Shown piece after piece: positions 388-60,838 of a stretch of DNA of 64,000 nt. Below the pieces are notes generated by a model. That model was not told where the DNA came from and did not search any database. It saw only the letters and a list, made by a program, of their open reading frames with translations. Every line of letters begins with the position of its first letter. Position 1 is the first letter of the stretch. Origin of the DNA: Cyclobacteriaceae bacterium (GTDB taxonomy: Bacteria; Bacteroidota; Bacteroidia; Cytophagales; Cyclobacteriaceae); assembly GCA_044224375.1 (NCBI GenBank), contig JBGAKL010000006.1, forward strand, positions 198,018-262,017, read 5' to 3'. A program made the translations under genes and the position numbers.

Positions 388-658
388 TCCGCGAATTTGT
401 ATCATAAGAAGATGCGACCCTAATGATGGTCGCCTGTCTCCGGTTGCCTGTCGCCGGTTAGTGCACCCAAAGTGGCTCGGAACCTCCTGAGATTAGCGTG
501 ACCTGCCGGAACAGGCAATGGGCAACAGGCAACAATTTCAGTCCGCGTAAATGATTGATTTCCAGAACTTAACCGCCAGAATCCTCTTTCAGCGCTGAGC
601 GCCGCTACGTTTCCTCATTTTTTTTGAATTCCGCTCTTGGTTACTCCGCCTCAGTTCC

Positions 659-3415: not shown

Positions 3416-3889
3416 ATGGAAACAACAGAAAAGAAAGTAAAGCGGTCGGTTAGGAAGCGTGAGAAGCTCAAGGCGATCAAAGAGGCTGCCAAGACTGGTC
3501 CTGCCGTTGCTTACCTGCACGATGTCCCCACATCACCGCGTAAGATGCGCCTGGTTGCTGATATCATCCGCGGCGAGCGCGTTGCCAAAGCATTGAACAT
3601 TCTTAAGTATGAAGCAAAGCATCCTGCAGAAAGAATGGAAAAGCTGCTGATGTCTGCGATCTCAAACTGGGAATCAAAGAATAAAGACGTGAAGCTCGAA
3701 GAGGCAGACCTGTTCGTAAAGGAAGTTCACGTTGGTGGAGGTCGCATCCTTAAGAGATTGCGTCCTGCACCGCAGGGTCGTGCACACCGCGTGCGCAAGC
3801 GCTCCAACCACGTCACACTGGTTGTTGACCGTATGCCTGCGGAAGTGAAACAAGAAAAGAAGAAGGTTCAAAAAGAAACCAAGGAATAA
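3416..3889 (+). CDS. rplV: 50S ribosomal protein L22 (uL22) with Lys-rich N- and C-terminal tails
   Basis: 157 aa. The core [14 protein letters not shown]... is typical of L22 and the position is conserved. Confidence 0.93.
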
Positions 3890-3891
3890 TA

Positions 3892-4725
3892 ATGGGACAA
3901 AAGATTAATCCTGTCGGCTTCCGCCTCGGAATCATCCGTGGATGGGACTCTAACTGGTTCGGCGGAAAAGAGATGTCTGATAAGCTGGTGGAAGACCAGA
4001 AGATCAGAAAGTACATCGACGCGCGTATTCAGAAAGGTGGCATCGCTAAAGTTGTGATTGAGCGTACGATCAAGCGCATCACGCTTACGATTCACACTGC
4101 CCGTCCGGGCGTAGTGATCGGAAAAGGCGGCACCGAGGTCGATAAAATCAAGGAAGAGTTGAAGAAGCTCACCGGCAAGGATGTTCAAATCAACATTTTC
4201 GAGATCAAGCGTCCTGAGCTGGATTCGAGACTGGTTGGCGAATCTATTGCCCAGCAGCTTGAGGCTCGTATCTCTTACCGTCGCGCGATGAAACAGGCAA
4301 TTGCTTCTTCGATGCGCGTGGGAGCAGAAGGAATCAAAATAAAATTGTCAGGTCGTTTGGCAGGTGCTGATATGGCCCGGACAGAACAATATAAGGAGGG
4401 ACGAATTCCCCTTCACACACTTCGCGCAGACATTGACTACGCGATTTCAGAAGCGCAGACTGTGTATGGAAAGATCGGCATCAAGGTGTGGATCTTCAAA
4501 GGCGAGATCTTCGGCAAGCGTGATCTGTCACCGAACGTAGGTGTTGTCTCCCAAGGAGACGGCAAGACGCAAGGCGGCGGTGCTGCACCGGGCGGCCCTC
4601 GTCGTGGTGGTGAGCGTGGCGAGCGCAGAGGAGGAGAAGGACGTGGTGAGCGTGGAGCAGGAGATAGAAGAGGCGGCGGTGGCGATCGCAGAGGCGGTGG
4701 CGGCGGTCCGAGAGGAAAGAGATAA
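3892..4725 (+). CDS. rpsC: 30S ribosomal protein S3 (uS3) with an Arg/Gly-rich C-terminal extension
   Basis: 277 aa, [13 protein letters not shown]..., KH-domain core, and a tail ...[39 protein letters not shown]. Confidence 0.96.
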
Positions 4726-12250: not shown

Positions 12251-12340
12251 GTTAATAGTTATCCGTTAATAGGACTATAAGCGGATAATTAGGAACCACA
12301 AACTGATAACTGACAACGATTAACAGATAACTAACAACAA
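12251..12340. repeat. Heptamer-phased inverted arms in the rpmJ-rpsM spacer
   Basis: Left arm GTTAATA GTTATCC GTTAATA (12251-12271). Right arm AACTGAT AACTGAC AACGATT AACAGAT AACTAAC AACAA (12301-12340). The reverse complement of the left arm matches 12318-12338 at 17 of 21 positions by hand count. Confidence 0.7.
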
Positions 12341-33525: not shown

Positions 33526-35259
33526 ATGCAATTGAGCGAACAGGAAATCATTCGGAGGCAGAGCCTCGAAGAGCTATTGAAACTGGGGATCAATCCCTAT
33601 CCGCCTGACCTCTTTGATGTGAACACCACCGCAAAGAAGATTCATGATGATTTTTCATCAAATCCGGAAAGCTTCAAGTACGTTTCGTTCGCAGGGCGCA
33701 TCATGTCCCGGAGGATTATGGGCAACGCATCCTTCGCCGAACTTCAGGATGAGTCCGGGAAAATTCAGGTGTACTTCCGCCGGGACGACCTAAGTCCGGG
33801 CGAGGATAAAACGCTTTACAATACGGTTTTCAAAAAACTTCTTGATATAGGCGACATCATTGGTATTCGCGGTTTTGTTTTCACGACCCAAACGGGCGAG
33901 ATCTCGATTCATGCGCAGTCACTTGTAGTGTTGTCAAAGTCCCTGCGTCCGTTGCCAGTGGTGAAAGAGACAAAAGACGAACAGGGAAATATTGAGCGAC
34001 ACGATGCTTTTACCGACTCGGAGCATCGCTACAGAATGCGCTATGTCGATCTGATTGTAAACCCCGGCGTTCGGGAAACATTTGTGAAACGCACGAAGCT
34101 CGTCAACTCGATGCGTCAATACCTGAATAACAAAGGTTATCTCGAAGTTGAGACTCCGGTTCTGCAACCCTTGTATGGTGGTGCCGCAGCACGTCCTTTC
34201 AAAACACACCACAACACACTCGATATGACGCTCTATTTGCGTATCGCGAATGAGCTATACCTTAAGCGCCTTATCGTTGGTGGATACGACGGCGTGTACG
34301 AGTTCTCAAAGGACTTTAGGAACGAAGGTATGTCCCGATTCCATAACCCGGAATTCACCCAGGTGGAGCTTTATGTCGCCTATAAAGACTATCAATGGAT
34401 GATGGAGCTCGTGGAGGAAATGATAGAAAAAGTTGCTATCGATTTGCACGGAACTACCAAGGTTAGGGTGGGCGAGCATATTATCGACTTTAAAAGGCCA
34501 TGGAAGCGTTATACCATGTTCGAAGCGATTCAGCATTTTACCGGCGTCGATATCTCCGCGATGAGTGAACAGCAAATGCGTGACGTGTGTAAGAAGCTGG
34601 GTGTTCCTGTCGATGCTACCATGGGAAAGGGAAAGCTCATCGATCAGATCTTCGGTGAAAAGTGCGAACCGCTTCTTATCCAGCCAACCTATATCACAGA
34701 CTATCCAATCGAAATGTCGCCGCTCGCCAAAAAACATAGAAGCAAGCCAGGACTTGTCGAGCGATTCGAAGCTATCTGCAATGGGAAGGAGATCTGTAAC
34801 GCATTTTCTGAATTGAATGATCCTATCGACCAGCGTTACCGCTTCGAAGAGCAGCTCGAGCTGGGAAAACGTGGTGATGAGGAGGCTATGACACTTGATG
34901 AGGATTTTCTCAGGGCACTGGAATACGGGATGCCTCCCACAGCGGGTCTTGGCATCGGCATTGACCGGTTGACAATGATTATGACAAATTCAGCGTCCAT
35001 CCAGGATGTTCTTTTCTTTCCCCAGATGAAGCCTGAAAAGGCACTGCTTGCTGCCCATGATGACGAGTTTAAGGCCATTGGAATTCGCGAGGAGCTGCTA
35101 CCATTGCTGCATCAACTCGGAATCACGAGCGTGGCCCAGCTAAAGGAAATCAAGCCTTCCAAATTGTTAAATGATTTGGGCGGTATGAGAAAGAAGATGA
35201 AGCTGGACATAGCCGCCATTACACTTCCGGAAATTGAAGGGTGGCTGAAATCTTTCTAA
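33526..35259 (+). CDS. lysS: Lysine--tRNA ligase, class II, with a C-terminal extension of about 75 aa
   Basis: 577 aa, ...[19 protein letters not shown]...[18 protein letters not shown]...[11 protein letters not shown]... Confidence 0.95.
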
Positions 35260-35337
35260 GTGCTAAGTGTTAAGTGTTGAGTATGCATGCTACGCCTTTA
35301 TACACGTACCCTACCTAACACATAACACTCAACACTC
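35258..35337. repeat. Heptamer-phased inverted arms between convergent lysS and the lptD-like gene (likely bidirectional terminator)
   Basis: Left arm AAGTGCT AAGTGTT AAGTGTT GAGTATG (35258-35285). Right arm AACACAT AACACTC AACACTC (35317-35337). Exact complementary core GTGTTGAGT/ACTCAACAC. Confidence 0.7.
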
Positions 35338-35342
35338 TTTTA

Positions 35343-42569: not shown

Positions 42570-42570
42570 G

Positions 42571-42630
42571 GACTGGAGTCAGGAAGCAAGGATTCAAGGA
42601 GTAGTTAGGGAGTTAAGAAGAAATTCGTTA
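42571..42630. repeat. Purine-rich upstream arm of the frameshifted four-helix-bundle cassette
   Basis: GACTGGAGTCAGGAAGCAAGGATTCAAGGAGTAGTTAGGGAGTTAAGAAGAAATTCG. It contains TTAGGGAGTT, the exact complement of AACTCCCTAA within 43051-43070, and shares the 10-mer GAAGCAAGGA with 57991-58000. Confidence 0.6.
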
Positions 42631-42688: not shown

Positions 42689-43167
42689 ATGCTTCCAGCA
42701 AAATCTTATACCGATCTTATCGTTTGGCAAAGTGCACACCATTTCGTGATAGCCGTTTACGCCTTTACTACAAAATTTCCCAGGAAGAAAGAAGTCTATG
42801 GTCTGACCTCTCAATTTCGCCCTGCGGCGGCCTCCATTGCTGCCAACATAGTGGAAGGAGATAAAAAACAGGTGCAAGGGACATACTTCGATTCTTAAAT
42901 TTTGCCCAAAGCTCACTTGAAGAATGTCGTTATTTCTTATTGCTCGCACGCGACCTCAACTTCAATGATGATCAGAAAATGATTCCTATGATTGAAGAGG
43001 TGAGTAACTTCTTAATGGCTATGCAAAGGCAATCTACATTAGGACTAGTCGAAGAACTCCCTAACTCCTCATTCTATTTTCCGCGAATAGTGCACCCAAC
43101 CGGCCTCACCGACGGCATATTCACATCTTGTCCGGCAAGTAACTTGTCAATTGCCTGCTTGATGTAA
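42689..43167 (+). pseudogene. Frameshifted four-helix-bundle protein gene (PF05635 / 23S rRNA intervening-sequence protein / Avd-like family)
   Basis: MLPAKSYTDLIVWQSAHHF...YGLTSQFRPAAASIAANIVEG parallels the intact paralogue at 58007-58378. The frame breaks at the A6 run 42863-42868. The -1 frame continues ...RFLNFAQSSLEECRYFLLLARDLNF... No stop occurs at the homologous end, so the frame runs on into the convergent gene. Confidence 0.7.
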
Positions 43168-54785: not shown

Positions 54786-56792
54786 ATGACTGCACACATG
54801 AAATACTTATTCTGCGTACTGACTATTTGCTTGAGCAACCAGGTATTTGGCTTAGCAGACACCACGCGCTACACTGTTATCACCACAGAGAAGATCTCCG
54901 GTAAACTCTTGCGCTGGACGGAAGCCCCCGAAAAAGTATCTTACTACTATGAGTTTAATGACAGAGGCCGGGGACCAAAACTCAGGGTTGATATCATTCT
55001 CAATGAACATCATGTTGTATCCCGTAAGGTCACGGGTGTTGATTACTTTAAAGGTGAGGTGAATGAGGTCTTTTCGATATCGAATGGAATCGCAAAGTGG
55101 AAGAATAAAATAGAGGATGGTCAGAAAAGTGTTTCAGCGCCGGTGCTGTACTCTCCCCTCAACAGCGTACCTGCAGAAGTCGAGTGGGATATTAAAATGG
55201 CCTTGAAAGTTCCGCATATCCAGGAAATTGAGACCGTTCCGAACGGAAAGCTGAAAGTTGAGCACGTAAAGAACCACACTGCCAAAGTTAACGGCTTCCC
55301 GGAAGAGCTTGAGCTTTTCTCATTCACGGGCTCAGGCGGTCCACCTACTTACATTTGGTTTACTCCCAATAAGGATTTCTTTGCTGCGGTGAGCGGTTGG
55401 ATGTCCACGATAAAGCTGGGCTATGAATTTCTTGTGCCCGAGCTGAAGCGCCTGCAAGATGAGATCGAGGAGGATTACTTCGCAGAGCAAGCCGTAACGT
55501 TAACGCAGAAGTCAAAGGTACCGGTTGCTATCACCGATGTCAGCGTTTTCGATTCGAAGTCGGGAAAAGTACATGCTAACCAAACGGTGGTGGTCGAGCA
55601 AGGGAAGATTACGCAGGTAGGCAAAGCAAGCAGCGTCAAGGCACCGGCCAATGCAAAAGTGATTTCCGGCCAGGGTAAAATGCTGCTCCCCGGCCTGTGG
55701 GACAATCACACACACTATGATATGTCTCAGGGTATTTACCACCTCGCGGCGGGAGTGACCAACATCAAGGACATGGGCAACTCACTGGATCTTCCGGAAA
55801 TAAAAAAGCAAGTAGATACCGACGCACTTTTAGGCCCGGAAATCACGATTTGGTCTGGTTTCATCGACTATGCTGGGCCATATGCTGGACCGACCGGCAA
55901 GATTGTAAAGACGCTGGAGGAAGGAATTGCTGCGGTGAACTTTTACGCCGACAATGGTTATCAACAAGTGAAGCTTTACAGTTCGCTGCCAGTGGATTGG
56001 GTAAAACCCATAGCGGCTGAAGCACATAAGCGTGGGCTTAAAGTGGTTGGTCATATTCCTTCTTTTATGACTGCAACGCGCGCCGTTAACGACGGCTACG
56101 ATCAAATCATTCACATGAACATGGTCATGCTTAATTTTCTTGGTGATACACTGGACACTCGTTCCATGGGGAGATTTACAAAAGTCGCAGCGCGGGCAAA
56201 GAACATCAACGTTAGCGGACCGGAAGCGAAGAAATTCATTCAATTGCTGAAGCAAAAGAAAACTGTTGTAGATCCAACCATGATGATTTTTGAAAGCATG
56301 TTTACCAACCAGCCCGGCAAGCTTGCTGCAGGTTATGACCAAAGTCAGAATATGTTTCCAGCCGAATTCAAGCGCGGTCTTTATAATGGTGGTCTTCCCA
56401 CGATGAAAGGACATGAGTCCGAATACAAGCAATCCTTCGACAACATGATGAAGATGCTGCAGCTTTTTCATAAGAATGGGATCACTTTTGTGCCGGGCAC
56501 GGATGATTTTCCCGGGTTTGCACTTCAGCGTGAGCTGGAACTGTATTCAATTGCCGGAGTCCCTAACGCAGAGGTGTTAAAGAAGGCGACGCTGACTTCA
56601 GCACAAGTAGCAGGTAAGGACAGTGAATACGGCACTATTGAAGTGGGCAAGAAAGCAAACCTCATTCTGGTTGATGGGGATCCGATAAAAAACATCGGCG
56701 ATATCCGCAAGGTGGAACTGACGATGAAGGGCGGTAACATGTATGATGCGAAGGCACTGTACAACTCCTATGGTTTTGGATTCTGGAAATAG
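54786..56792 (+). CDS. Amidohydrolase-family protein (secreted)
   Basis: 668 aa, ...LLPGLWDNHTHY... metal-binding HxH context and ...LVDGDPIKNI... ATG 54798 is an alternative start with a better signal peptide. Confidence 0.8.
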   Translation: MTAHMKYLFCVLTICLSNQVFGLADTTRYTVITTEKISGKLLRWTEAPEKVSYYYEFNDRGRGPKLRVDIILNEHHVVSRKVTGVDYFKGEVNEVFSISNGIAKWKNKIEDGQKSVSAPVLYSPLNSVPAEVEWDIKMALKVPHIQEIETVPNGKLKVEHVKNHTAKVNGFPEELELFSFTGSGGPPTYIWFTPNKDFFAAVSGWMSTIKLGYEFLVPELKRLQDEIEEDYFAEQAVTLTQKSKVPVAITDVSVFDSKSGKVHANQTVVVEQGKITQVGKASSVKAPANAKVISGQGKMLLPGLWDNHTHYDMSQGIYHLAAGVTNIKDMGNSLDLPEIKKQVDTDALLGPEITIWSGFIDYAGPYAGPTGKIVKTLEEGIAAVNFYADNGYQQVKLYSSLPVDWVKPIAAEAHKRGLKVVGHIPSFMTATRAVNDGYDQIIHMNMVMLNFLGDTLDTRSMGRFTKVAARAKNINVSGPEAKKFIQLLKQKKTVVDPTMMIFESMFTNQPGKLAAGYDQSQNMFPAEFKRGLYNGGLPTMKGHESEYKQSFDNMMKMLQLFHKNGITFVPGTDDFPGFALQRELELYSIAGVPNAEVLKKATLTSAQVAGKDSEYGTIEVGKKANLILVDGDPIKNIGDIRKVELTMKGGNMYDAKALYNSYGFGFWK

Positions 56793-56810
56793 CGGTCTGA
56801 CTTGCGACGA

Positions 56811-57038
56811 ATGGAAGAAGCTTCGGAGAAAATCGTTGTATTTGATTCTTACAATACCGTTGTGGAAGCCAATCTTGTGAAGACCAAGCTTGACGCGTAT
56901 GGTGTGCCGTGCTTCCTGAGTGAGGAAAACTTCACAAACCTTCTTCCGATAAAAAACGAATTGTTTCCCGGCGTGCGGCTCCACATTTTCGAGAGAGACC
57001 GGGAGCGCGTGAAAGAGATCCTGTCCGAAGAAAATTAA
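56811..57038 (+). CDS. DUF2007-type small protein (putative signal-transducing fold)
   Basis: ...IVVFDSYNTVVEANLVKTKLDAYGVPCFLSEEN... TTG 56802 is an alternative start. Confidence 0.6.
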   Translation: MEEASEKIVVFDSYNTVVEANLVKTKLDAYGVPCFLSEENFTNLLPIKNELFPGVRLHIFERDRERVKEILSEEN

Positions 57039-57048
57039 ATAACCTCCC

Positions 57049-57089
57049 ACAAATCGCGCTGATCTCACAGATTAAATCTTTCGATTTGT
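57049..57089. terminator. Hairpin between convergent genes (ACAAATCG ... CGATTTGT, with inner ATCT/AGAT)
   Basis: An 8-bp outer stem was read directly. It uses the CACAGAT/ATCCGT vocabulary of the other spacer repeats. Confidence 0.5.
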
Positions 57090-57109
57090 TAGATCCGTAA
57101 GAGGGAAAA

Positions 57110-57934
57110 TTATCCGATTTTCACGCTCGTCATGGATACCGATCCCATCACGGTTCTATCATTAAAAAAAGAAACCTCTTCGTTATCCTCTTTTAATCCG
57201 AGAACATAAAGCAACGGCAAATAATGTTCGGGCGTCGGAATGGAAAGTCTCGCAGCTTGGCCAAGTGATTCATACTTGATCAGTGATGTATGATCTCCTT
57301 TCGCGATCAGGTCCTTGAACTTCGTGTTTGTTTCGATAGCCCAGTCATATCCGGATTCCGGCAGCCTCCAATCCATGACACCCAGGTTGTGCACCATGTT
57401 GCCGCTACCGATGATGAGTACATTCTTCTTCCGCAAAGATGCTAGTTCCCGCGCGAGGCCATAGTGGAACGCCGGGCTTTTTGTATAGTCGATGCTAAGT
57501 TGAAGCACCGGAATTTTTGCTTCGGAAAACATCCGTTTAACCACCGACCACGTCCCGTGGTCAAGTCCCCATTCGTGATCCAGGCCAACTTCTGTAGTTC
57601 GGACCATTGAGGCCGCTGCTTTCGCGAGGGCAGGATCCCCGGGCGCAGGATATTGGACATCGAACAGCTGCTTTGGGAAACCATAAAAGTCATGAATGGT
57701 TCTGGGCTTTTCCATTGCCGTGACAAATGTCCCCTTTGTAAACCAGTGCGCGGACACGACGATTACGGCAGCCGGCGGCTTAAGATCTCGTCCTAATTTC
57801 TCCCATGTTTCGCTGAACTGGTTGTTTTCGATTCCATTCATCGGTGAGCCGTGGCCGATGAAGAGGAGGGGTGTTTTTGATTCCTGCGGGGAAAGTGAAT
57901 CGTTTAGCTTTTCAAGGTCCTTGAGGGTGTTCAT
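57110..57934 (-). CDS. ygiD: 4,5-DOPA dioxygenase extradiol-like (LigB-family class III extradiol dioxygenase, YgiD type)
   Basis: 274 aa, ...LLFIGHGSPMN...VVSAHW... Confidence 0.85.
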   Translation of the reverse strand: MNTLKDLEKLNDSLSPQESKTPLLFIGHGSPMNGIENNQFSETWEKLGRDLKPPAAVIVVSAHWFTKGTFVTAMEKPRTIHDFYGFPKQLFDVQYPAPGDPALAKAAASMVRTTEVGLDHEWGLDHGTWSVVKRMFSEAKIPVLQLSIDYTKSPAFHYGLARELASLRKKNVLIIGSGNMVHNLGVMDWRLPESGYDWAIETNTKFKDLIAKGDHTSLIKYESLGQAARLSIPTPEHYLPLLYVLGLKEDNEEVSFFNDRTVMGSVSMTSVKIG

Positions 57935-57976
57935 TGTCTCACAACACGATTAAGTAATAAAAAGTTGCGCACACTA

Positions 57977-58002
57977 GGAGTAAGAACAAAGAAGCAAGGA
58001 GG
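57977..58002. repeat. Purine-rich heptamer arm (GAGTAAG AACAAAG AAGCAAG) at the 3' side of the four-helix-bundle gene
   Basis: The 26-nt tract matches the reverse complement of 58449-58474 at 22 of 26 positions (hand count). Confidence 0.7.
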
Positions 58003-58006
58003 TGCG

Positions 58007-58378
58007 TTACGAATGCGAATTGATGTCATCATCAATGGCTTTCGCGTACGCATTTAAGAGTTTACTAACTTCTACCATTAGAAATTCAAGTTTGGGATCA
58101 TGATTGAACTGAAGATCCTTAGCCAACATGAGGTAGTACCGACATTCCTCAACTGATCCTTGTGCAAAATTAAGAAATCGTCGCTTGTCGCGTTTTCCCT
58201 TTTTCGCATACCCTTCGGAAATATTTGCAGCGATCGACACGGCTGCTCTCCGAAACTGTGATGTCAATCCGTAAATTTCTTCCCTTGGAAAAGCCTTGGT
58301 GAAGATGTAAACATCCAGCACAAATCGATGTGCTTTCTGCCATACGAGGAGCTCGCTAAAGTTTTTCGTAGGAATCAT
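58007..58378 (-). CDS. Four-helix-bundle protein (PF05635 / TIGR02436, 23S rRNA intervening-sequence protein; Avd-like)
   Basis: 123 aa, ...FSELLVWQKAHRFVLDVY...EIYGLTSQFRRAAVSIAANISEGY...FLNFAQGSVEECRYYLMLAKDL... Confidence 0.88.
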   Translation of the reverse strand: MIPTKNFSELLVWQKAHRFVLDVYIFTKAFPREEIYGLTSQFRRAAVSIAANISEGYAKKGKRDKRRFLNFAQGSVEECRYYLMLAKDLQFNHDPKLEFLMVEVSKLLNAYAKAIDDDINSHS

Positions 58379-58443
58379 CCAGTCAAGTTGACACCGTATT
58401 GTTTCGGTTCATATTTTCTGCCTGCTCGGAATTCCTGATAATC

Positions 58444-58495
58444 TTCTTCCTTCTTTCTTCTTTCTTCTTACTTCTTACTTCTTTCTTCTTTCTTC
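58444..58495. repeat. Tandem heptanucleotide repeat, about 7.4 copies of TTCTTNC
   Basis: TTCTTCC TTCTTTC TTCTTTC TTCTTAC TTCTTAC TTCTTTC TTCTTTC TTC, read directly. It lies 66 nt upstream (coding sense) of the four-helix-bundle gene. Confidence 0.9.
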
Positions 58496-58582
58496 GAAAC
58501 CCGTTAATTCTGAGGAAGAATGACGATTTTAGCAGGCTAGTGTAACAAGCTGGTTCTCCCAGGCGTCTAGCCCTTGTAATTG

Positions 58583-59095
58583 ATGGACTTGGAAACGTTC
58601 CAAACTCGTGTCTTTCCCGTAAAAAACAAGCTTTTCCGGTTTGCTTTCCGCATGTTGGGGAGCAGCGAAGAGGCCAAAGATGTCGTTCAGGAAGTATTTA
58701 TCAAGATCTGGAACGGGCGGGATCAACTGGAAGGCATACAGAACATGGAGGCATGGTGCATGCGCATTACGAAAAATCTGTCGTTGGACAGGCTTCGTCA
58801 GCAGCAGCGCCGGCCCACGGATGACCTCGAGAAGGGATTCTACGTCCAACACGGAGCATTGTCGCCACACGACTCCACTGAAATGAAAGAAAATATGACA
58901 CGCATCGGCGAACTGATGGATTCCCTTCCGGAAAAACAACGGCATGTCATGCATCTCCGAGATGTGGAAGGCTACAGCTACAATGAAATCTGCGAGATCC
59001 TGGAACTGGATATGAGCCAGGTGAAAGTCAATCTATTCCGCGCACGGAATGCGGTGCGTGAGAAACTACAAAAATTAAATGCTTATGGACTCTAA
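58583..59095 (+). CDS. ECF-subfamily RNA polymerase sigma-70 factor
   Basis: ...AKDVVQEVFIKIW... (region 2) and ...HLRDVEGYSYNEICEIL... (region 4). Confidence 0.9.
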   Translation: MDLETFQTRVFPVKNKLFRFAFRMLGSSEEAKDVVQEVFIKIWNGRDQLEGIQNMEAWCMRITKNLSLDRLRQQQRRPTDDLEKGFYVQHGALSPHDSTEMKENMTRIGELMDSLPEKQRHVMHLRDVEGYSYNEICEILELDMSQVKVNLFRARNAVREKLQKLNAYGL

Positions 59096-59597
59096 GACCA
59101 TAGAAGCGCTGCTGGAAAAATATTGGAACGCCGACACGACTCTCGAAGAAGAGGAGCAGCTCAAAGAATATTTTGCCGGCGCAAACGTCCCTGATAATAT
59201 GCAGTCGGCTGCGGCCTTGTTTCGTTTTTTTGATGATGAAAAAAATAAATCTCTGGGAGAAAATTTTGAAACGGCTGTAACAAAGGAATTGCGTAAGCGT
59301 CGTGAGGGAAAGGTGATCAGTATGGTAAGTTTCAGAAACGTCACACGCATTGCTGCAGGAATCGTTGTCGTGGTGGCTGCGACTTACTTCATACGCAATG
59401 AGATCAGGAAATCGTATCCACAGGAGCTCCAGGATACTTATTCCGATCCGCAAATGGCCTTCGAGGAAACAAAGAAAGCACTGATGATGATTTCGAACAG
59501 CTTCGGCAAAGCGAAACATGAGACCGGAAAGATCAAGATGTTTAACGATGCAGAAAAGAAGATTCAAACCAAGTCAAACGAGAAAGCAAACATTTAA
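59079..59597 (+). CDS. Putative anti-sigma factor (single-pass membrane protein)
   Basis: Overlaps the sigma gene by 17 nt. Has an N-terminal helical segment ...EALLEKYWNADTTLEEEEQLKEYF and a TM segment IAAGIVVVVAATYFI. Confidence 0.55.
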   Translation: MLMDSKTIEALLEKYWNADTTLEEEEQLKEYFAGANVPDNMQSAAALFRFFDDEKNKSLGENFETAVTKELRKRREGKVISMVSFRNVTRIAAGIVVVVAATYFIRNEIRKSYPQELQDTYSDPQMAFEETKKALMMISNSFGKAKHETGKIKMFNDAEKKIQTKSNEKANI

Positions 59598-59610
59598 TAA
59601 TTGAAATCGT

Positions 59611-59641
59611 CCCGATCCCGATAGCAATCGGGACTATCGGG
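59611..59641. repeat. Nested copy of the CCCGAT...ATCGGG palindrome family
   Basis: CCCGAT CCCGATAGCAATCGGG ACTATCGGG. The inner and outer stems were read directly. Confidence 0.7.
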
Positions 59642-59662
59642 AGAAAAATTAAACTAACGAAT

Positions 59663-60244
59663 ATGAAAAAGTTAATGATCGGAGCGGTGGTGATGGTAAT
59701 GTCGCTTGCCGCACAGGCGCAAAGTGATGCAATCGCCAGTTTCTTCAATAAATACCAGGACGACGAATCATTCACACAGGTGACGGTTAGTAGCAAGATG
59801 TTCAGTCTGTTTACGAACATGGAAGTTAAAAGCCCGGAAGACCAGGAAGTGCTGAATGCGATAAGCAAGTTGAAGGGATTGCGGATCCTGGCAAAAGAAA
59901 ATACAAGCGATGCAAAAGGCTTGTACAAAGAGGCAATGGGGATCCTGCCGGTAAAGACATATGAAGAGCTGATGTCTGTTCGTGATGACGGCAAGGACAT
60001 GAAGTTCTTTATTAAGGAAGTAAAGCCGGGAACGATCGGTGAGTTGGTGATGATCGCTGGAGGTAATGACGATTTTGCGATGCTGACGCTCTTTGGTGAG
60101 ATTGATCTCAAGCAGATCAGTAAGATCGGAAGCAAGATGGACATCGATGGATTGAACCACCTTAGGAAACTTGATAAGAACGGCAAGGACGGCGGCAAAG
60201 AGAATAGCAAGGAAAACGCCAAAGAAAAGAAGAACGACGAGTAA
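59663..60244 (+). CDS. DUF4252-type secreted protein, paralogue 1
   Basis: 193 aa with a signal peptide, ...FFNKYQDDESFTQVTVSSKMFSLF... and a Lys/Glu-rich tail. Confidence 0.68.
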   Translation: MKKLMIGAVVMVMSLAAQAQSDAIASFFNKYQDDESFTQVTVSSKMFSLFTNMEVKSPEDQEVLNAISKLKGLRILAKENTSDAKGLYKEAMGILPVKTYEELMSVRDDGKDMKFFIKEVKPGTIGELVMIAGGNDDFAMLTLFGEIDLKQISKIGSKMDIDGLNHLRKLDKNGKDGGKENSKENAKEKKNDE

Positions 60245-60256
60245 ACACTTACGTTC

Positions 60257-60838
60257 ATGAAGAAATTACTTATCCTCCTCGCACTGGTGATTGCAACCGC
60301 AGAACTTCGCGCCCAGGCGAAAGCAACAGAAGCATTGCAGGCGACTTTTGATAAGTCGCTTGCATTGTATTTCTACAAGAACACACTCAGGATGCTGAAT
60401 CAGACGGAGAACAAAGAGTTTGATGATATGATCAGGAACATCGAAAAACTTAAATTCCTGATGATTGACAAGGAGTCGAAACAATTCGGGTCCAATGAAT
60501 ACAAGAAACTCAAGCTGGACTATCAGTCGGAGCACTTTGAGTCCGTGATGACCAGTCGTTACCAGGGACGGAACTTTGATGTATTCTACAACGATAAGAA
60601 GGGATCAACGCCTGGAACGGTCGTATTGGTCAATGATTCCAGCAGCCTTTACGTCCTGGACATTGTCGGAACGATCGATGTATCAAAGGCCGGCGCACTG
60701 TTTTCGTCTCTTGATGAAAGCTCAGATATCGGCCGGAAGATCAAAGACTTTGTTGGCCGGAAAGACCGTCGCCACAAGTTCGATCAGGACGGCGATGAAG
60801 GTGAAGACGATAAAGGCGACAAGAAGTCAGACCATTAA
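60257..60838 (+). CDS. DUF4252-type secreted protein, paralogue 2
   Basis: 193 aa with a signal peptide, the same length and architecture, and an acidic/basic tail. Confidence 0.65.
   Translation: MKKLLILLALVIATAELRAQAKATEALQATFDKSLALYFYKNTLRMLNQTENKEFDDMIRNIEKLKFLMIDKESKQFGSNEYKKLKLDYQSEHFESVMTSRYQGRNFDVFYNDKKGSTPGTVVLVNDSSSLYVLDIVGTIDVSKAGALFSSLDESSDIGRKIKDFVGRKDRRHKFDQDGDEGEDDKGDKKSDH

What the first reader, a model, noticed from the sequence alone, without database searches (positions are those of the whole stretch)
57977..58495. Four-helix-bundle (23S-IVS / Avd-like) gene sits in the loop of a long hairpin built from heptanucleotide arrays
The intact PF05635-type gene (58007-58378, minus strand) is bracketed by a purine-rich tract GGAGTAAGAACAAAGAAGCAAGGAGG (57977-58002) and a pyrimidine-rich tandem heptamer array (TTCTTNC x about 7, 58444-58495). 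The reverse complement of 58449-58474 matches the left tract at 22 of 26 positions by hand count. The transcript can therefore fold into a stem that encloses the whole ORF and its 5' leader. This family was first described as ORFs inside 23S rRNA intervening sequences, which are stem-loops excised by RNase III. Here the same topology appears in a non-rRNA context. It suggests a self-contained cassette (mobile or RNase III-processed) rather than an ordinary gene. The function of this protein family outside diversity-generating retroelements is unknown.
Basis: partly seen in the sequence, partly recalled or inferred. Interest (0 to 1): 0.65.

Follow-up and report, generated by a model that had tools for sequence, protein, structure and literature searches.

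The report
Mobile hairpin cassette carrying IVS-protein gene
A small gene of unknown function, first known from inserts inside ribosomal RNA genes, sits here between ordinary genes, wrapped in two complementary arrays of 7-base repeats; its relatives in many bacterial phyla are wrapped the same way, and one such package is present in one strain and cleanly absent from near-identical strains.

Summary
An intact PF05635/TIGR02436 gene (58007-58378, minus) is bracketed by a 7.7-copy heptamer array (58442-58495) and a degenerate complementary array (57976-58002). The arms pair at 23 of 27 positions, better than 3,801 random placements in the window and all but 2 of 2,000 composition-matched shuffles.

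It is not a local oddity. A second, frameshifted copy (42689-43040) has its own arms. Of 86 homologous genes from about ten phyla, 84 have tandem arrays beside them, mostly of period 7, 14 or 21. The 5' arm is purine-rich and the 3' arm is its reverse complement, usually starting just after the stop codon. Every gene-bearing heptamer hairpin I found carries this gene family; gene-less "solo" hairpins are also common.

The gene is missing from the same sigma-LigB spacer in the closest relatives. In a Dolichospermum relative, near-identical strains lack exactly the arms plus the gene, leaving one copy of an 8-bp direct repeat.

Best reading: a mobile IVS-type cassette outside rRNA. Its inverted heptamer ends also form a long stem in the transcript. 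RNase III cleavage is inferred from published rRNA IVS work and was not tested. The role of the protein remains unknown.

The parts
58442..58495 (-). 5' arm of cassette copy 1. On the sense (minus) strand it is a purine-rich tandem heptamer array, GAAGAAA/GAAGTAA x7.7. The pairing core is 58449-58475.
   Evidence: TRF period 7, 7.7 copies, 91% matches. Inverted repeat I1. Sequence read.
58379..58441 (-). Leader of about 63 nt between the 5' arm and the ATG. It contains an AACCG-A/T-A-C/A-type motif also seen in copy 2 and in the closest homolog L002. No promoter was identified on the sense strand.
   Evidence: Sequence. The promoter scan found only plus-strand sigma-70-like hits at 58388-58417.
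58007..58378 (-). Intact four-helix-bundle gene (PF05635 / TIGR02436, the '23S rRNA intervening sequence protein', S23p), 123 aa. All family-invariant residues are present.
   Evidence: Pfam and NCBIfam matches. PDB relative 2GSC (XCC0516), E 1.2e-15. Alignment A1.
57976..58002 (-). 3' arm of copy 1. It starts 4 nt after the stop codon. On the sense strand it reads CCTCCTTGCTTCTTTGTTCTTACTCCT, a degenerate 3.9-unit heptamer array that complements the 5' arm at 23 of 27 positions.
42570..42622 (+). 5' purine-rich arm of cassette copy 2. The pairing core is 42596-42614, AAGGAGTAGTTAGGGAGTT. It starts directly after the stop codon of the upstream transglutaminase-like gene.
   Evidence: Sequence. 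Alignment score 28, where only 11 of 3,801 random placements reach 24 or more and the null maximum is 28. The long-range stem is in both the MFE and the centroid fold. Upstream gene family.
42689..43040 (+). Second PF05635-type gene, now a pseudogene. Two tblastn segments (65% and 56% identity to copy 1) lie in different frames, and a stop follows residue 81 of the first frame.
   Evidence: tblastn. ORF list.
43055..43073 (+). 3' arm of copy 2, AACTCCCTAACTCCTCATT. It complements 42596-42614 at 17 of 19 positions.
428..534 (.). Solo heptamer hairpin with no gene. The arrays GCCTGTC/GCCGGTT and AACAGGC/GGGCAAC are complementary and lie about 50 nt apart, between an enolase-superfamily gene end and a ribosomal protein L3 gene.
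   Evidence: TRF. Fold -63 kcal/mol with the arrays paired. Neighbour families.
35257..35338 (.). Solo heptamer hairpin. TAAGTGC/TAAGTGT x3.7 faces CTAACAC/ATAACAC/TCAACAC across a loop of about 28 nt.
   Evidence: TRF. Sequence and fold.

Best explanation
The locus is one copy of a widespread selfish cassette of the same kind as the ORF-bearing intervening sequences (IVSs) of 23S rRNA genes. Here it sits between protein-coding genes.

The unit is: 5' purine-rich heptamer array, then a short leader, then the PF05635 four-helix-bundle gene, then the reverse-complementary heptamer array.

Shown:
- The unit inserts and is lost as one piece.
- In the one case resolved to the base, it is bounded by terminal inverted repeats (GTAAGGATTCAGGAG...CTCCTGAATTCTTAC) and an 8-bp direct repeat of the target.
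- It occurs across many phyla.
- Gene-less 'solo' hairpins of the same build are scattered in the same genomes.

Inferred:
- Most copies sit co-oriented in tight operon spacers, and in many the 5' array runs right up to the ATG. The arms are therefore transcribed together with the gene.
- The arms pair into a stem with a median core of 25 bp (about 27 bp here).
- As demonstrated for rRNA IVSs, RNase III cuts this stem. That would release the ORF-bearing loop and separate the flanking RNAs, which would make insertion into transcribed DNA tolerable.
- The heptamer build lets the arms grow and shrink by slippage while still pairing in shifted registers. In many lineages it also supplies AGGAG (Shine-Dalgarno-like) units upstream and TGA-containing units downstream.

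Not known: how the DNA moves (no transposase is encoded) and what the protein does.
For: Window:
- The arms are real and non-random.
- A second copy has its own arms.
- There is no rRNA and no Rfam family in the window.

Family survey:
- 84 of 86 homolog genes in 80 genome loci have flanking tandem arrays, 51 on both sides, with periods 7, 14, 21 and 28 dominant.
- The arm score reaches 24 or more in 63% of real pairs, 24% of cross-locus pairs and 0.8% of random positions.
- Polarity is fixed. The upstream 120 nt is more than 60% purine in 50 of 81 loci and under 40% in 2.
- Distant subfamilies (30-43% identity) and the single viral-contig homolog also have arms, built from unrelated heptamers.
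- Of the complementary array pairs found, 57 enclose an IVP gene. The one apparent exception with a 353-nt loop encloses a divergent PF05635 gene as well.

Mobility:
- The gene is absent from the orthologous spacer in relatives and present next to the sigma gene in one other lineage.
- Cassettes 95% and 90% identical sit in unrelated flanks, and similarity ends at the arms.
- The L070 cassette (618 nt) is precisely missing in DNA contigs of strains about 98% identical in the flanks, with 8 ambiguous junction letters, matching the direct repeat TTAAAATC.
- L067 has the same termini with the direct repeat TATATTTC.

Transcription:
- The median gap to the co-oriented neighbours is 73 nt upstream and 48 nt downstream, arms included.
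- In 9 of 51 loci the paired core of the 5' arm ends within 12 nt of the ATG; the printed flanks show more arrays that run to the ATG.
- RNA-run contigs of a relative carry an IVP homolog inside contigs of 2.2-2.7 kb.

Precedent: the Coxiella 23S IVS has a 28-bp terminal stem and GACAGAT heptamer repeats before the S23p ATG whose number varies between strains. RNase III cuts in the stem at the start of the first repeat (PMC4990558, read).
Against: - No RNA data exist for this organism, so transcription of the 5' arm, stem formation and cleavage are all untested here.
- Copy 1 is atypical. Its upstream neighbour is the divergent sigma gene, and I found no promoter for it.
- The strand-specific test for an RNA structure is weak. 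G:U-type versus A:C-type mismatches in the arms are 31 against 20 (not significant). The sense duplex is better than the antisense in 52 loci against 29 (p = 0.02).
- Co-orientation with neighbours (89% upstream, 84% downstream) is barely above the 79% baseline for adjacent genes in the same loci.
- A clean direct repeat plus terminal inverted repeat was found in only 2 of 80 loci, and not at the window copy.
- Within groups of close relatives the arms are interchangeable, so the covariation lies between heptamer types, not between individual loci.
Confidence: 0.58

Rival explanations
1. DNA-level only. The inverted heptamer arrays are simply the ends of a non-autonomous transposon, that is, repeated binding sites for a recombinase supplied in trans, as with the subterminal repeats of other transposons. 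The PF05635 gene would be a passenger or an accessory factor. The RNA stem would be an unavoidable by-product with no processing role outside rRNA.
For: - Terminal inverted repeats, an 8-bp direct repeat and a precise empty site in DNA.
- Solo hairpins that resemble MITE-like derivatives.
- The same spacer is occupied by three different heptamer hairpins in different lineages.
- The G:U versus A:C test shows no clear RNA signature.
Against: - No transposase is encoded in or next to the cassettes I examined.
- The purine-rich-5' polarity is fixed relative to the gene, and arrays abut the start and stop codons. A purely DNA-level end would not need either.
- In rRNA copies the same stem is demonstrably an RNase III substrate.
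Confidence: 0.25
2. A resident, vertically inherited gene whose flanking arrays are a translational or regulatory device. AGGAG-type units would be sequestered by CUCCU-type units, or the arrays would be binding sites for a repeat-reading RNA-binding protein, possibly the IVP pentamer itself. The unit would not be mobile.
For: - In many loci the last 5' unit places AGGAG at Shine-Dalgarno distance from the ATG, and the 3' arm reads CTCCT. The window 3' arm begins CCTCCTT.
- Some sites are conserved across families, for example thiolase-truA in Bacteroidota and the site upstream of thiolase in Pyrinomonadaceae.
- MacGregor 2015 proposed a post-transcriptional regulator for TAACTGA repeats.
Against: - Presence/absence among near-identical strains, with a target duplication.
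- Near-identical cassettes in unrelated flanks.
- Homologs 60-70% identical in at least ten phyla.
- Bacteroidota arrays (TAAGAAG, TTAAGGAG) are mostly not Shine-Dalgarno-like.
Confidence: 0.08
3. Chance or low-complexity artefact. A polypurine/polypyrimidine microsatellite (slippage-prone, able to form H-DNA or G4) happens to lie near a purine-rich tract, with no relation to the gene.
For: - The whole-region fold z-score is only -1.66 on the sense strand.
- Cross-locus mismatched arms also pair fairly well.
- Heptamer SSRs are generally over-represented in bacteria (papers read).
Against: - 0 of 3,801 random placements and 2 of 2,000 shuffles reach the observed pairing.
- The same arrangement recurs at the second copy and in 63% of homologs, against 0.8% of controls.
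Confidence: 0.01
4. A remnant or orphan Avd of a diversity-generating retroelement (DGR).
For: Weak similarity to bAvd (PF22296, 27.2 bits) and to NF033474 (27.7 bits).
Against: - Both scores are below their cut-offs (40 and 80 bits).
- The genes within about 3 kb are an amidohydrolase, DUF2007, LigB, an ECF sigma factor, an unassigned 172-aa ORF and two DUF4252 proteins. None is a reverse transcriptase.
- Only 1 homolog was found in 2.9 million viral contigs.
Confidence: 0.02

Closest known systems
ORF-bearing intervening sequences (IVSs) of 23S rRNA genes (Leptospira, Coxiella burnetii, Brucella, Haemophilus; S23p ORF)
   Same: - Same protein family in the loop, in sense orientation.
- Complementary termini form a stem of 25-30 bp.
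- Heptameric direct repeats lie between the 5' stem strand and the ATG, and their number varies between strains. Coxiella has GACAGAT x2-3, of the same AGACAGA/CAGAAGA type seen here.
- Sporadic, horizontally spread distribution (PMC4990558).
   Different: - This copy lies between protein-coding genes, not in helix 9, 25 or 45 of 23S rRNA, and the window holds no rRNA.
- The arms are longer and are built as arrays on both sides.
- RNase III excision is shown for the rRNA copies and is only inferred here.
- The host RNA interrupted is an mRNA or an intergenic spacer.
MITEs and other non-autonomous TIR transposons
   Same: - Terminal inverted repeats.
- An 8-bp direct repeat at a verified insertion in a relative.
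- Gene-less short derivatives in the same genomes.
- Intergenic location.
   Different: - It carries a conserved non-transposase gene, and no partner transposase has been identified.
- The ends are tandem heptamer arrays whose sequence differs between lineages.
- No target duplication is visible at the window copy.
Heptanucleotide tandem repeats of bacteria: cyanobacterial STRR sequences (from memory: Mazel et al. 1990), GGGAATC / GGGGAYT repeats of Xanthomonas and Nostoc (Rehm 2015, PMC4692102), TAACTGA repeats of Beggiatoaceae, Cyanobacteria and Bacteroidetes (MacGregor 2015, PMC4679880)
   Same: - Intergenic tandem heptamers.
- In Xanthomonas, 70-75 pairs lie in convergent (inverted) orientation.
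- Repeats lie just upstream of start codons and carry stop codons in all three frames.
- The phylogenetic distribution is patchy, with 'no mechanism evident'.
   Different: Those papers interpret the repeats as G-quadruplexes or as binding sites for a translational regulator. The texts searched never mention an enclosed PF05635 gene. Here the arrays are paired ends of a gene cassette.
Avd, the accessory protein of diversity-generating retroelements
   Same: Related four-helix-bundle fold. The crystallised IVS-type relative XCC0516 is a homopentameric toroid (PDB 2GSC; described in PMC4990558).
   Different: Scores fall below the Avd model cut-offs. No reverse transcriptase or template/variable repeats lie nearby.

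Membership tests
23S rRNA intervening sequence (IVS) element | Inserted in a helix of a 23S rRNA gene (helix 9, 25 or 45) | tested here: not met
   No rRNA and no other Rfam family in the 64-kb window. The neighbours are LigB and an ECF sigma gene.
23S rRNA intervening sequence (IVS) element | Complementary termini that form a stem enclosing the whole insert | tested here: met
   27-nt arms, 85% complementary. The stem is in the MFE and centroid folds and beats the random and shuffle controls.
23S rRNA intervening sequence (IVS) element | S23p / PF05635 ORF in the loop, in sense orientation (ORF-bearing subclass) | tested here: met
   PF05635 at 114.9 bits; TIGR02436 at 112 bits.
23S rRNA intervening sequence (IVS) element | Excision of the stem-loop from the precursor RNA by RNase III | not testable with these tools
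   Only DNA runs hold this sequence. Shown experimentally for the Coxiella IVS (PMC4990558).
23S rRNA intervening sequence (IVS) element | Sporadic presence among related strains | tested here: met
   The gene is absent from the orthologous sigma-LigB spacer in relatives and present in one other lineage.
PF05635 / TIGR02436 four-helix-bundle protein | Score above the curated family cut-offs; similar to a solved four-helix-bundle member | tested here: met
   PDB 2GSC_A, E 1.2e-15. The structure was not predicted here.
DGR accessory protein Avd | Reaches the Avd equivalog cut-off (NF033474) or the bAvd cut-off (PF22296) | tested here: not met
   27.7 bits against 80; 27.2 bits against 40.
DGR accessory protein Avd | Linked reverse transcriptase and template/variable repeats | tested here: not met
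   The Pfam scan of the eight neighbouring ORFs (54786-60838) shows no reverse transcriptase. Template and variable repeats were not searched for specifically.
MITE-like non-autonomous TIR transposon | Terminal inverted repeats | tested here: met
   for the window. GTAAGGATTCAGGAG / CTCCTGAATTCTTAC in L070 and L067.
MITE-like non-autonomous TIR transposon | Target-site duplication and a matching empty site | tested here: inconclusive
   Not found at the window copy. Found in relative L070, where an 8-bp direct repeat matches an empty site in DNA contigs, and in L067. Only 2 of 80 loci pass the strict search.
MITE-like non-autonomous TIR transposon | No transposase inside; mobilised by a cognate transposase in trans | not tested
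   The only ORF inside is the IVP gene. No cognate transposase was looked for.
Heptanucleotide long simple-sequence repeats (STRR-like) | Intergenic tandem arrays of a 7-nt unit | tested here: met
   TRF, (window; homolog loci).

The most novel reading that the evidence does not exclude
The Avd-like four-helix-bundle protein is the cassette's own mobility or maintenance factor. It would read the heptamer arrays, as DNA or as RNA, and recruit host enzymes such as a polymerase, a reverse transcriptase or a nuclease. That would define a class of minimal mobile elements with no canonical transposase. The gene-less heptamer hairpins would be its non-autonomous derivatives. This would explain the long-noted excess of heptanucleotide repeats in Cyanobacteria, Bacteroidota and Xanthomonas, and the origin of rRNA IVSs.
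Probability: 0.2. Interest if true: 0.9.

Novelty: new variant of a known kind. Interest (0 to 1): 0.7.

Why it matters
PF05635 / TIGR02436 proteins are among the commonest small "hypothetical" proteins of Bacteroidota, Cyanobacteria, Acidobacteriota and Verrucomicrobiota. They have had no function since they were seen in Leptospira rRNA IVSs in 1993.

If they are systematically packaged between complementary heptamer arrays, and the package inserts as a unit, three separate puzzles become one testable object:
- the origin and mobility of rRNA intervening sequences;
- the unexplained over-representation and patchy horizontal distribution of heptanucleotide repeats in bacteria;
- the role of Avd-like proteins outside diversity-generating retroelements.

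There are practical consequences too. These genes should be annotated as cassette cargo, not as host operon members; they have been reported as "cas-associated" because they land in cas operons. The arrays can also break assemblies and mimic repeat loci.

Tried and rejected
1. RNA evidence. Only DNA runs hold the window sequence. RNA searches with relatives L070 and L076 returned runs that shared mainly array words. Loci from annotated collections or from the look-up of encoding contigs could not be submitted. No cleavage mapping was therefore possible.
2. Strand-of-structure test. G:U-type versus A:C-type mismatches in the arms came to 31 against 20, not significant. Whole-flank duplex energies favour the sense strand only weakly.
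3. My first RNAduplex survey extended pairs across the whole flanks and gave inflated energies. I replaced it with local alignment scores and proper controls.
4. A general search for target duplications found only 2 of 80 loci, and none at the window copies.
5. Orientation bias looked strong against a 50% expectation but is marginal against the real 79% baseline.
6. Locus-specific covariation within orthologous groups: arms are interchangeable within groups.
7. DNA of the closest empty-site contigs (JGI 3300050046) could not be fetched. The metagenome scan reached only relatives at 74% identity or less.
8. Rfam, PADLOC and viral contigs gave nothing relevant, apart from one viral homolog that also has arms.
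9. Other cargo. I looked for non-IVP genes inside heptamer hairpins. The only candidate (L026, 1118-1480) is a divergent PF05635 gene. The 131-aa ORF next to the L086 solo hairpin is unrelated, with only weak zinc-ribbon hits.
10. Source-metagenome polymorphism. No joined (empty) form of the window locus appeared in runs X1-X3.
Full report
OBSERVATION. An ORF at 58007-58378 on the minus strand encodes a 123-aa protein. It matches PF05635 (23S_rRNA_IVP) at 114.9 bits and TIGR02436 (four helix bundle protein) at 112 bits. It stays below the cut-offs of the DGR Avd models. Its nearest solved relative is XCC0516, PDB 2GSC. Tandem Repeats Finder reports a period-7 array of 7.7 copies at 58442-58495. 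The repeat finder pairs 57976-58002 with 58449-58475, 27 nt at 85% complementarity. The left tract itself has period 7 (TCCTTGC/TTCTTTG/TTCTTAC on the sense strand), so both arms are heptamer arrays. MFE and centroid folds of 57960-58510 contain the long-range stem on both strands, although the whole-region z-score is modest at -1.66 on the sense strand. In controls, the arm-alignment score of 34 exceeds all 3,801 random pseudo-gene placements in the window (maximum 28). Only 2 of 2,000 composition-preserving shuffles of the pyrimidine arm pair as well.

SURROUNDINGS. The gene lies in the 645-bp spacer between an ECF sigma gene (58580-59095, plus strand) and a LigB/4,5-DOPA-dioxygenase gene (57110-57934, minus strand), and is co-oriented with the latter. 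The window holds no rRNA and no Rfam family. A tblastn of the protein against the window found a second copy at 42689-43040 on the plus strand. It is split between two frames and is therefore a pseudogene. It too has a purine-rich tract upstream (42570-42622) whose core AAGGAGTAGTTAGGGAGTT pairs with AACTCCCTAACTCCTCATT at 43055-43073. Its score is 28; only 11 of 3,801 random placements reached 24 or more and the null maximum was 28. The stem is in its MFE and centroid folds. In both copies the purine-rich arm is 5' on the sense strand. The window also holds two gene-less heptamer hairpins, at 428-534 and 35257-35338.

FAMILY SURVEY. The protein has more than 2,500 database relatives, all named, where named at all, 'four helix bundle protein'. 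I kept the best 80, at 55-71% identity. They come from Bacteroidota, Cyanobacteriota, Acidobacteriota, Verrucomicrobiota, Planctomycetota, Desulfobacterota, Nitrospirota, Ignavibacteriota, Balneolota and Firmicutes. Of the 86 family genes in these loci, 84 have a tandem array within 250 nt on at least one side and 51 on both sides. Periods 7, 14, 21 and 28 account for 52 of 71 upstream arrays and 43 of 64 downstream arrays. Upstream units are purine-rich (AGGAGTC, AGAAGTC, AGAATTC, AGAATAC, AGGAGAC, TAAGAAG, TTAAGGAG and others). Downstream units are their reverse complements and typically start at the first base after the stop codon. In many lineages the stop codon is itself part of a CTCCTGA-type unit. 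L047 (Ohtaekwangia) and L075 (Chitinophaga) carry the same TAAGAAG/TTCTTAC type as the window.

A local alignment of the 5' flank against the reverse complement of the 3' flank scores as follows.

| Set | Score 24 or more | Score 30 or more |
|---|---|---|
| Real gene flanks (81 genes) | 63% | 44% |
| Cross-locus mismatched pairs | 24% | 13% |
| Random positions in the same loci | 0.8% | 0% |

Real pairs exceed mismatched pairs at p = 1.4e-10 and random positions at p = 2e-23. Arms of different loci partly cross-pair because heptamer types are shared. Within groups of orthologs they are interchangeable. The co-variation is therefore between heptamer types. Distant subfamilies (30-43% identity) use unrelated units (AGCCAAC, AACGAGT, CAATCTTT, AATTACG, GGAAGTG) but keep the arrangement. 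Among complementary array pairs, 57 enclose a family gene. The rest are solo hairpins with loops of 4-180 nt. The one pair with a 353-nt loop encloses a divergent PF05635 gene that tblastn had missed. I found no other cargo.

IS IT A DISCRETE, MOBILE UNIT? Three lines of evidence say so.

1. The window's own site. In the two closest LigB orthologs (86-87% identity) the gene order ABC / DUF4252 / DUF4252 / anti-sigma / sigma / LigB / amidohydrolase is the same. The sigma-LigB spacer is 177 bp with no gene in one, and 332 bp with a 76-aa unassigned ORF in the other. In every more distant relative with this synteny the spacer is 130-415 bp without the gene, and none of 88 LigB loci has an IVP gene nearby. 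A third contig from the same metagenome carries an 80%-identical IVP gene next to the sigma gene. The spacer edges are conserved: an ECF-type promoter motif on the sigma side and CGCAACTTTTT on the LigB side. The middle differs between lineages. It holds the IVP cassette here, a GCTGTTG/AAGCTTA solo hairpin in L088 and L089 (which differ by exactly one 7-nt unit), and an NTCAAAT solo hairpin in L086 and L087.

2. Near-identical cassettes in unrelated flanks. L034 and L048 are 95% identical from -17 to +19 relative to the gene and unrelated beyond. L045 and L070 are 90% identical from about -40 to +60.

3. A base-resolved empty site. Contigs from RNA runs, and then from three DNA metagenomes whose flanks are about 98% identical to L070 (Dolichospermum), join position 2905 to position 3524. 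They skip 618 nt, which is exactly 5' array + leader + gene + 3' array, with 8 ambiguous junction letters. The sequence shows TTAAAATC on both sides of an element that begins GTAAGGATTCAGGAG and ends CTCCTGAATTCTTAC. L067 (Nostoc) has the same termini flanked by TATATTTC. Chimeric controls gave 1 hit in 394. A strict search found such signatures in only 2 of 80 loci and not at the window copy, which is evidently older, since an IVP only 80% identical sits next to the sigma gene in a related lineage.

HOW IT PROBABLY WORKS. Most cassettes sit co-oriented between host genes. The median gap is 73 nt to the upstream gene and 48 nt to the downstream gene, arms included. In 9 of 51 loci the paired core of the 5' arm ends within 12 nt of the ATG, and the printed flanks show further arrays that run to the ATG. 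That leaves no room for an internal promoter, so the 5' arm must be transcribed with the gene. The two arms would then form a stem with a median core of 25 bp and 91% complementarity. For rRNA copies this step is experimentally known. The Coxiella burnetii IVS has a 28-bp terminal stem. It has GACAGAT heptamer repeats before the S23p start codon whose number varies between strains. RNase III cuts inside the stem at the start of the first repeat. Similar excision is reported for Leptospira and Salmonella IVSs (PMC4990558). I therefore infer that the non-rRNA cassettes are 'intervening sequences in mRNA'. Their stems would be RNase III substrates that detach the ORF-bearing loop from the flanking cistrons. 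The inverted arrays would double as the DNA ends of the mobile unit.

The heptamer build tolerates slippage: there is a one-unit difference between L088 and L089, copy number varies in Coxiella, and arrays range from 2 to 32 units. In many lineages it supplies AGGAG at Shine-Dalgarno distance and TGA in all three frames downstream. MacGregor noted the same property for TAACTGA repeats.

The following are inferred, not shown: transcription of the window's 5' arm (its upstream neighbour is divergent and I found no promoter), stem formation in vivo, cleavage, and any role of the protein. The strand-specific mismatch test is inconclusive. Co-orientation is only slightly above the 79% baseline.

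COMPARISON WITH WHAT IS KNOWN. The closest known kind is the ORF-bearing 23S rRNA IVS. Protein family, stem, heptamer repeats and sporadic distribution all match. The defining rRNA location does not, and RNase III processing could not be tested. The cassette also has MITE-like features: terminal inverted repeats, a target duplication in a relative, and solo derivatives. It encodes a non-transposase protein and has no known partner transposase. It is not a DGR Avd (sub-threshold scores, no reverse transcriptase nearby).

Heptanucleotide arrays have been described in Xanthomonas and Nostoc, where 70-75 convergent pairs per Xanthomonas genome were interpreted as G-quadruplex elements (PMC4692102). 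They have also been described in Beggiatoaceae, Cyanobacteria and Bacteroidetes (TAACTGA, 'no mechanism is evident'; PMC4679880). Neither text, as searched, mentions the enclosed gene family. IVP genes have been noted inside cas operons without mention of arms (PMC3936711). Six full-text searches found no paper linking PF05635 genes outside rRNA to complementary heptamer arrays. The library lacks most subscription journals, so prior description cannot be excluded.

VERDICT. I rate it a new variant of a known kind (an IVS-type cassette outside rRNA, with array-built ends and evidence of insertion as a unit), with interest 0.7. The main open points are the RNA-level steps, the mobilising enzyme and the function of the protein.

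Noticed in passing
window 12301-12340: A degenerate heptamer array (AACTGAT AACTGAC AACGATT AACAGAT AACTAAC) ends directly at the ATG (12341) of an ORF starting [16 protein letters not shown]. That looks like ribosomal protein S13, judged by eye only. It resembles the TAACTGA repeats upstream of start codons described by MacGregor 2015.
   Followed up: partly
window 58541-58573 and the left edge of L083/L086/L088/L091/L100/L110 spacers: A conserved TGTAACAA-N16-CGTCT motif lies upstream of the ECF sigma gene in all relatives. It is probably the sigma factor's own autoregulated promoter. The cassette sits just beyond it.
   Followed up: partly
L088 versus L089 (spacer upstream of LigB): Two contigs encode the identical LigB protein but differ by exactly one AAGCTTA unit in a solo heptamer hairpin (239 versus 232 bp). 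This is direct evidence of unit-wise slippage in natural populations.
   Followed up: yes
L047, L075, L017, L065 (and L010 downstream side): An IVP cassette lies between a thiolase gene (...GLATMCIGVGQGAA...) and truA (MRFFFEISYNG...) in MAGs labelled Ohtaekwangia, Chitinophaga, Cyclobacteriaceae and Bacteroidia. This is either an old conserved insertion or a hot spot. L006 (Verrucomicrobiota) and L080 (Acidobacteriota) both have a cassette directly upstream of a gene that looks like aspartokinase.
   Followed up: partly
L048 2880-3380; also L018, L013, L020: A complete solo hairpin precedes the IVP start codon, and a second 3'-type array follows the stop. In L048 the 19-nt ATTCTGAATACCTGAATAG is directly repeated on both sides of [TAGGAGTCAGGAGACAGA + gene], as if the gene unit had landed inside a 3' array.
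   Followed up: partly
L070 arrays in runs X10, X13, X14, X22, X24: Word depth over the AGGAGTC / GACTCCT arrays is 100 to 2,000 times that of the flanks in both transcriptome and metagenome contigs. Arrays of this type are therefore very numerous and are transcribed in Nostocales. The TTCTTNC array of the window is about 30 times deeper than its flanks in its own metagenome.
   Followed up: partly
L026 1118-1480: A divergent PF05635 gene that tblastn missed sits between a thiC-like and a thiE-like gene, flanked by AATTACG / AATTCAT arrays. Sequence-similarity screens therefore undercount the family.
   Followed up: yes
L086-L089 around 3926-3990 (between a 131-aa ORF and the amidohydrolase gene): Another solo heptamer hairpin (AATTACG or AATGACG facing ATTCGTC) replaces the DUF2007 gene position of the window. 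The 131-aa ORF has only weak zinc-ribbon hits.
   Followed up: partly
window 58388-58417 (plus strand): A sigma-70-like TTGACA-16/18-CATATT/TATTTT match lies inside the cassette leader and points towards the sigma gene. Its relevance in a Bacteroidota-type genome is doubtful.
   Followed up: no
L170 (Nostoc punctiforme pNPUN02) and L171 (Trichormus variabilis plasmid C): IVP cassettes sit inside co-oriented gene rows on conjugative plasmids. A TrbI/VirB10 gene lies two genes downstream in L171. In PLSDB, 31 plasmids, almost all cyanobacterial, carry a homolog.
   Followed up: partly
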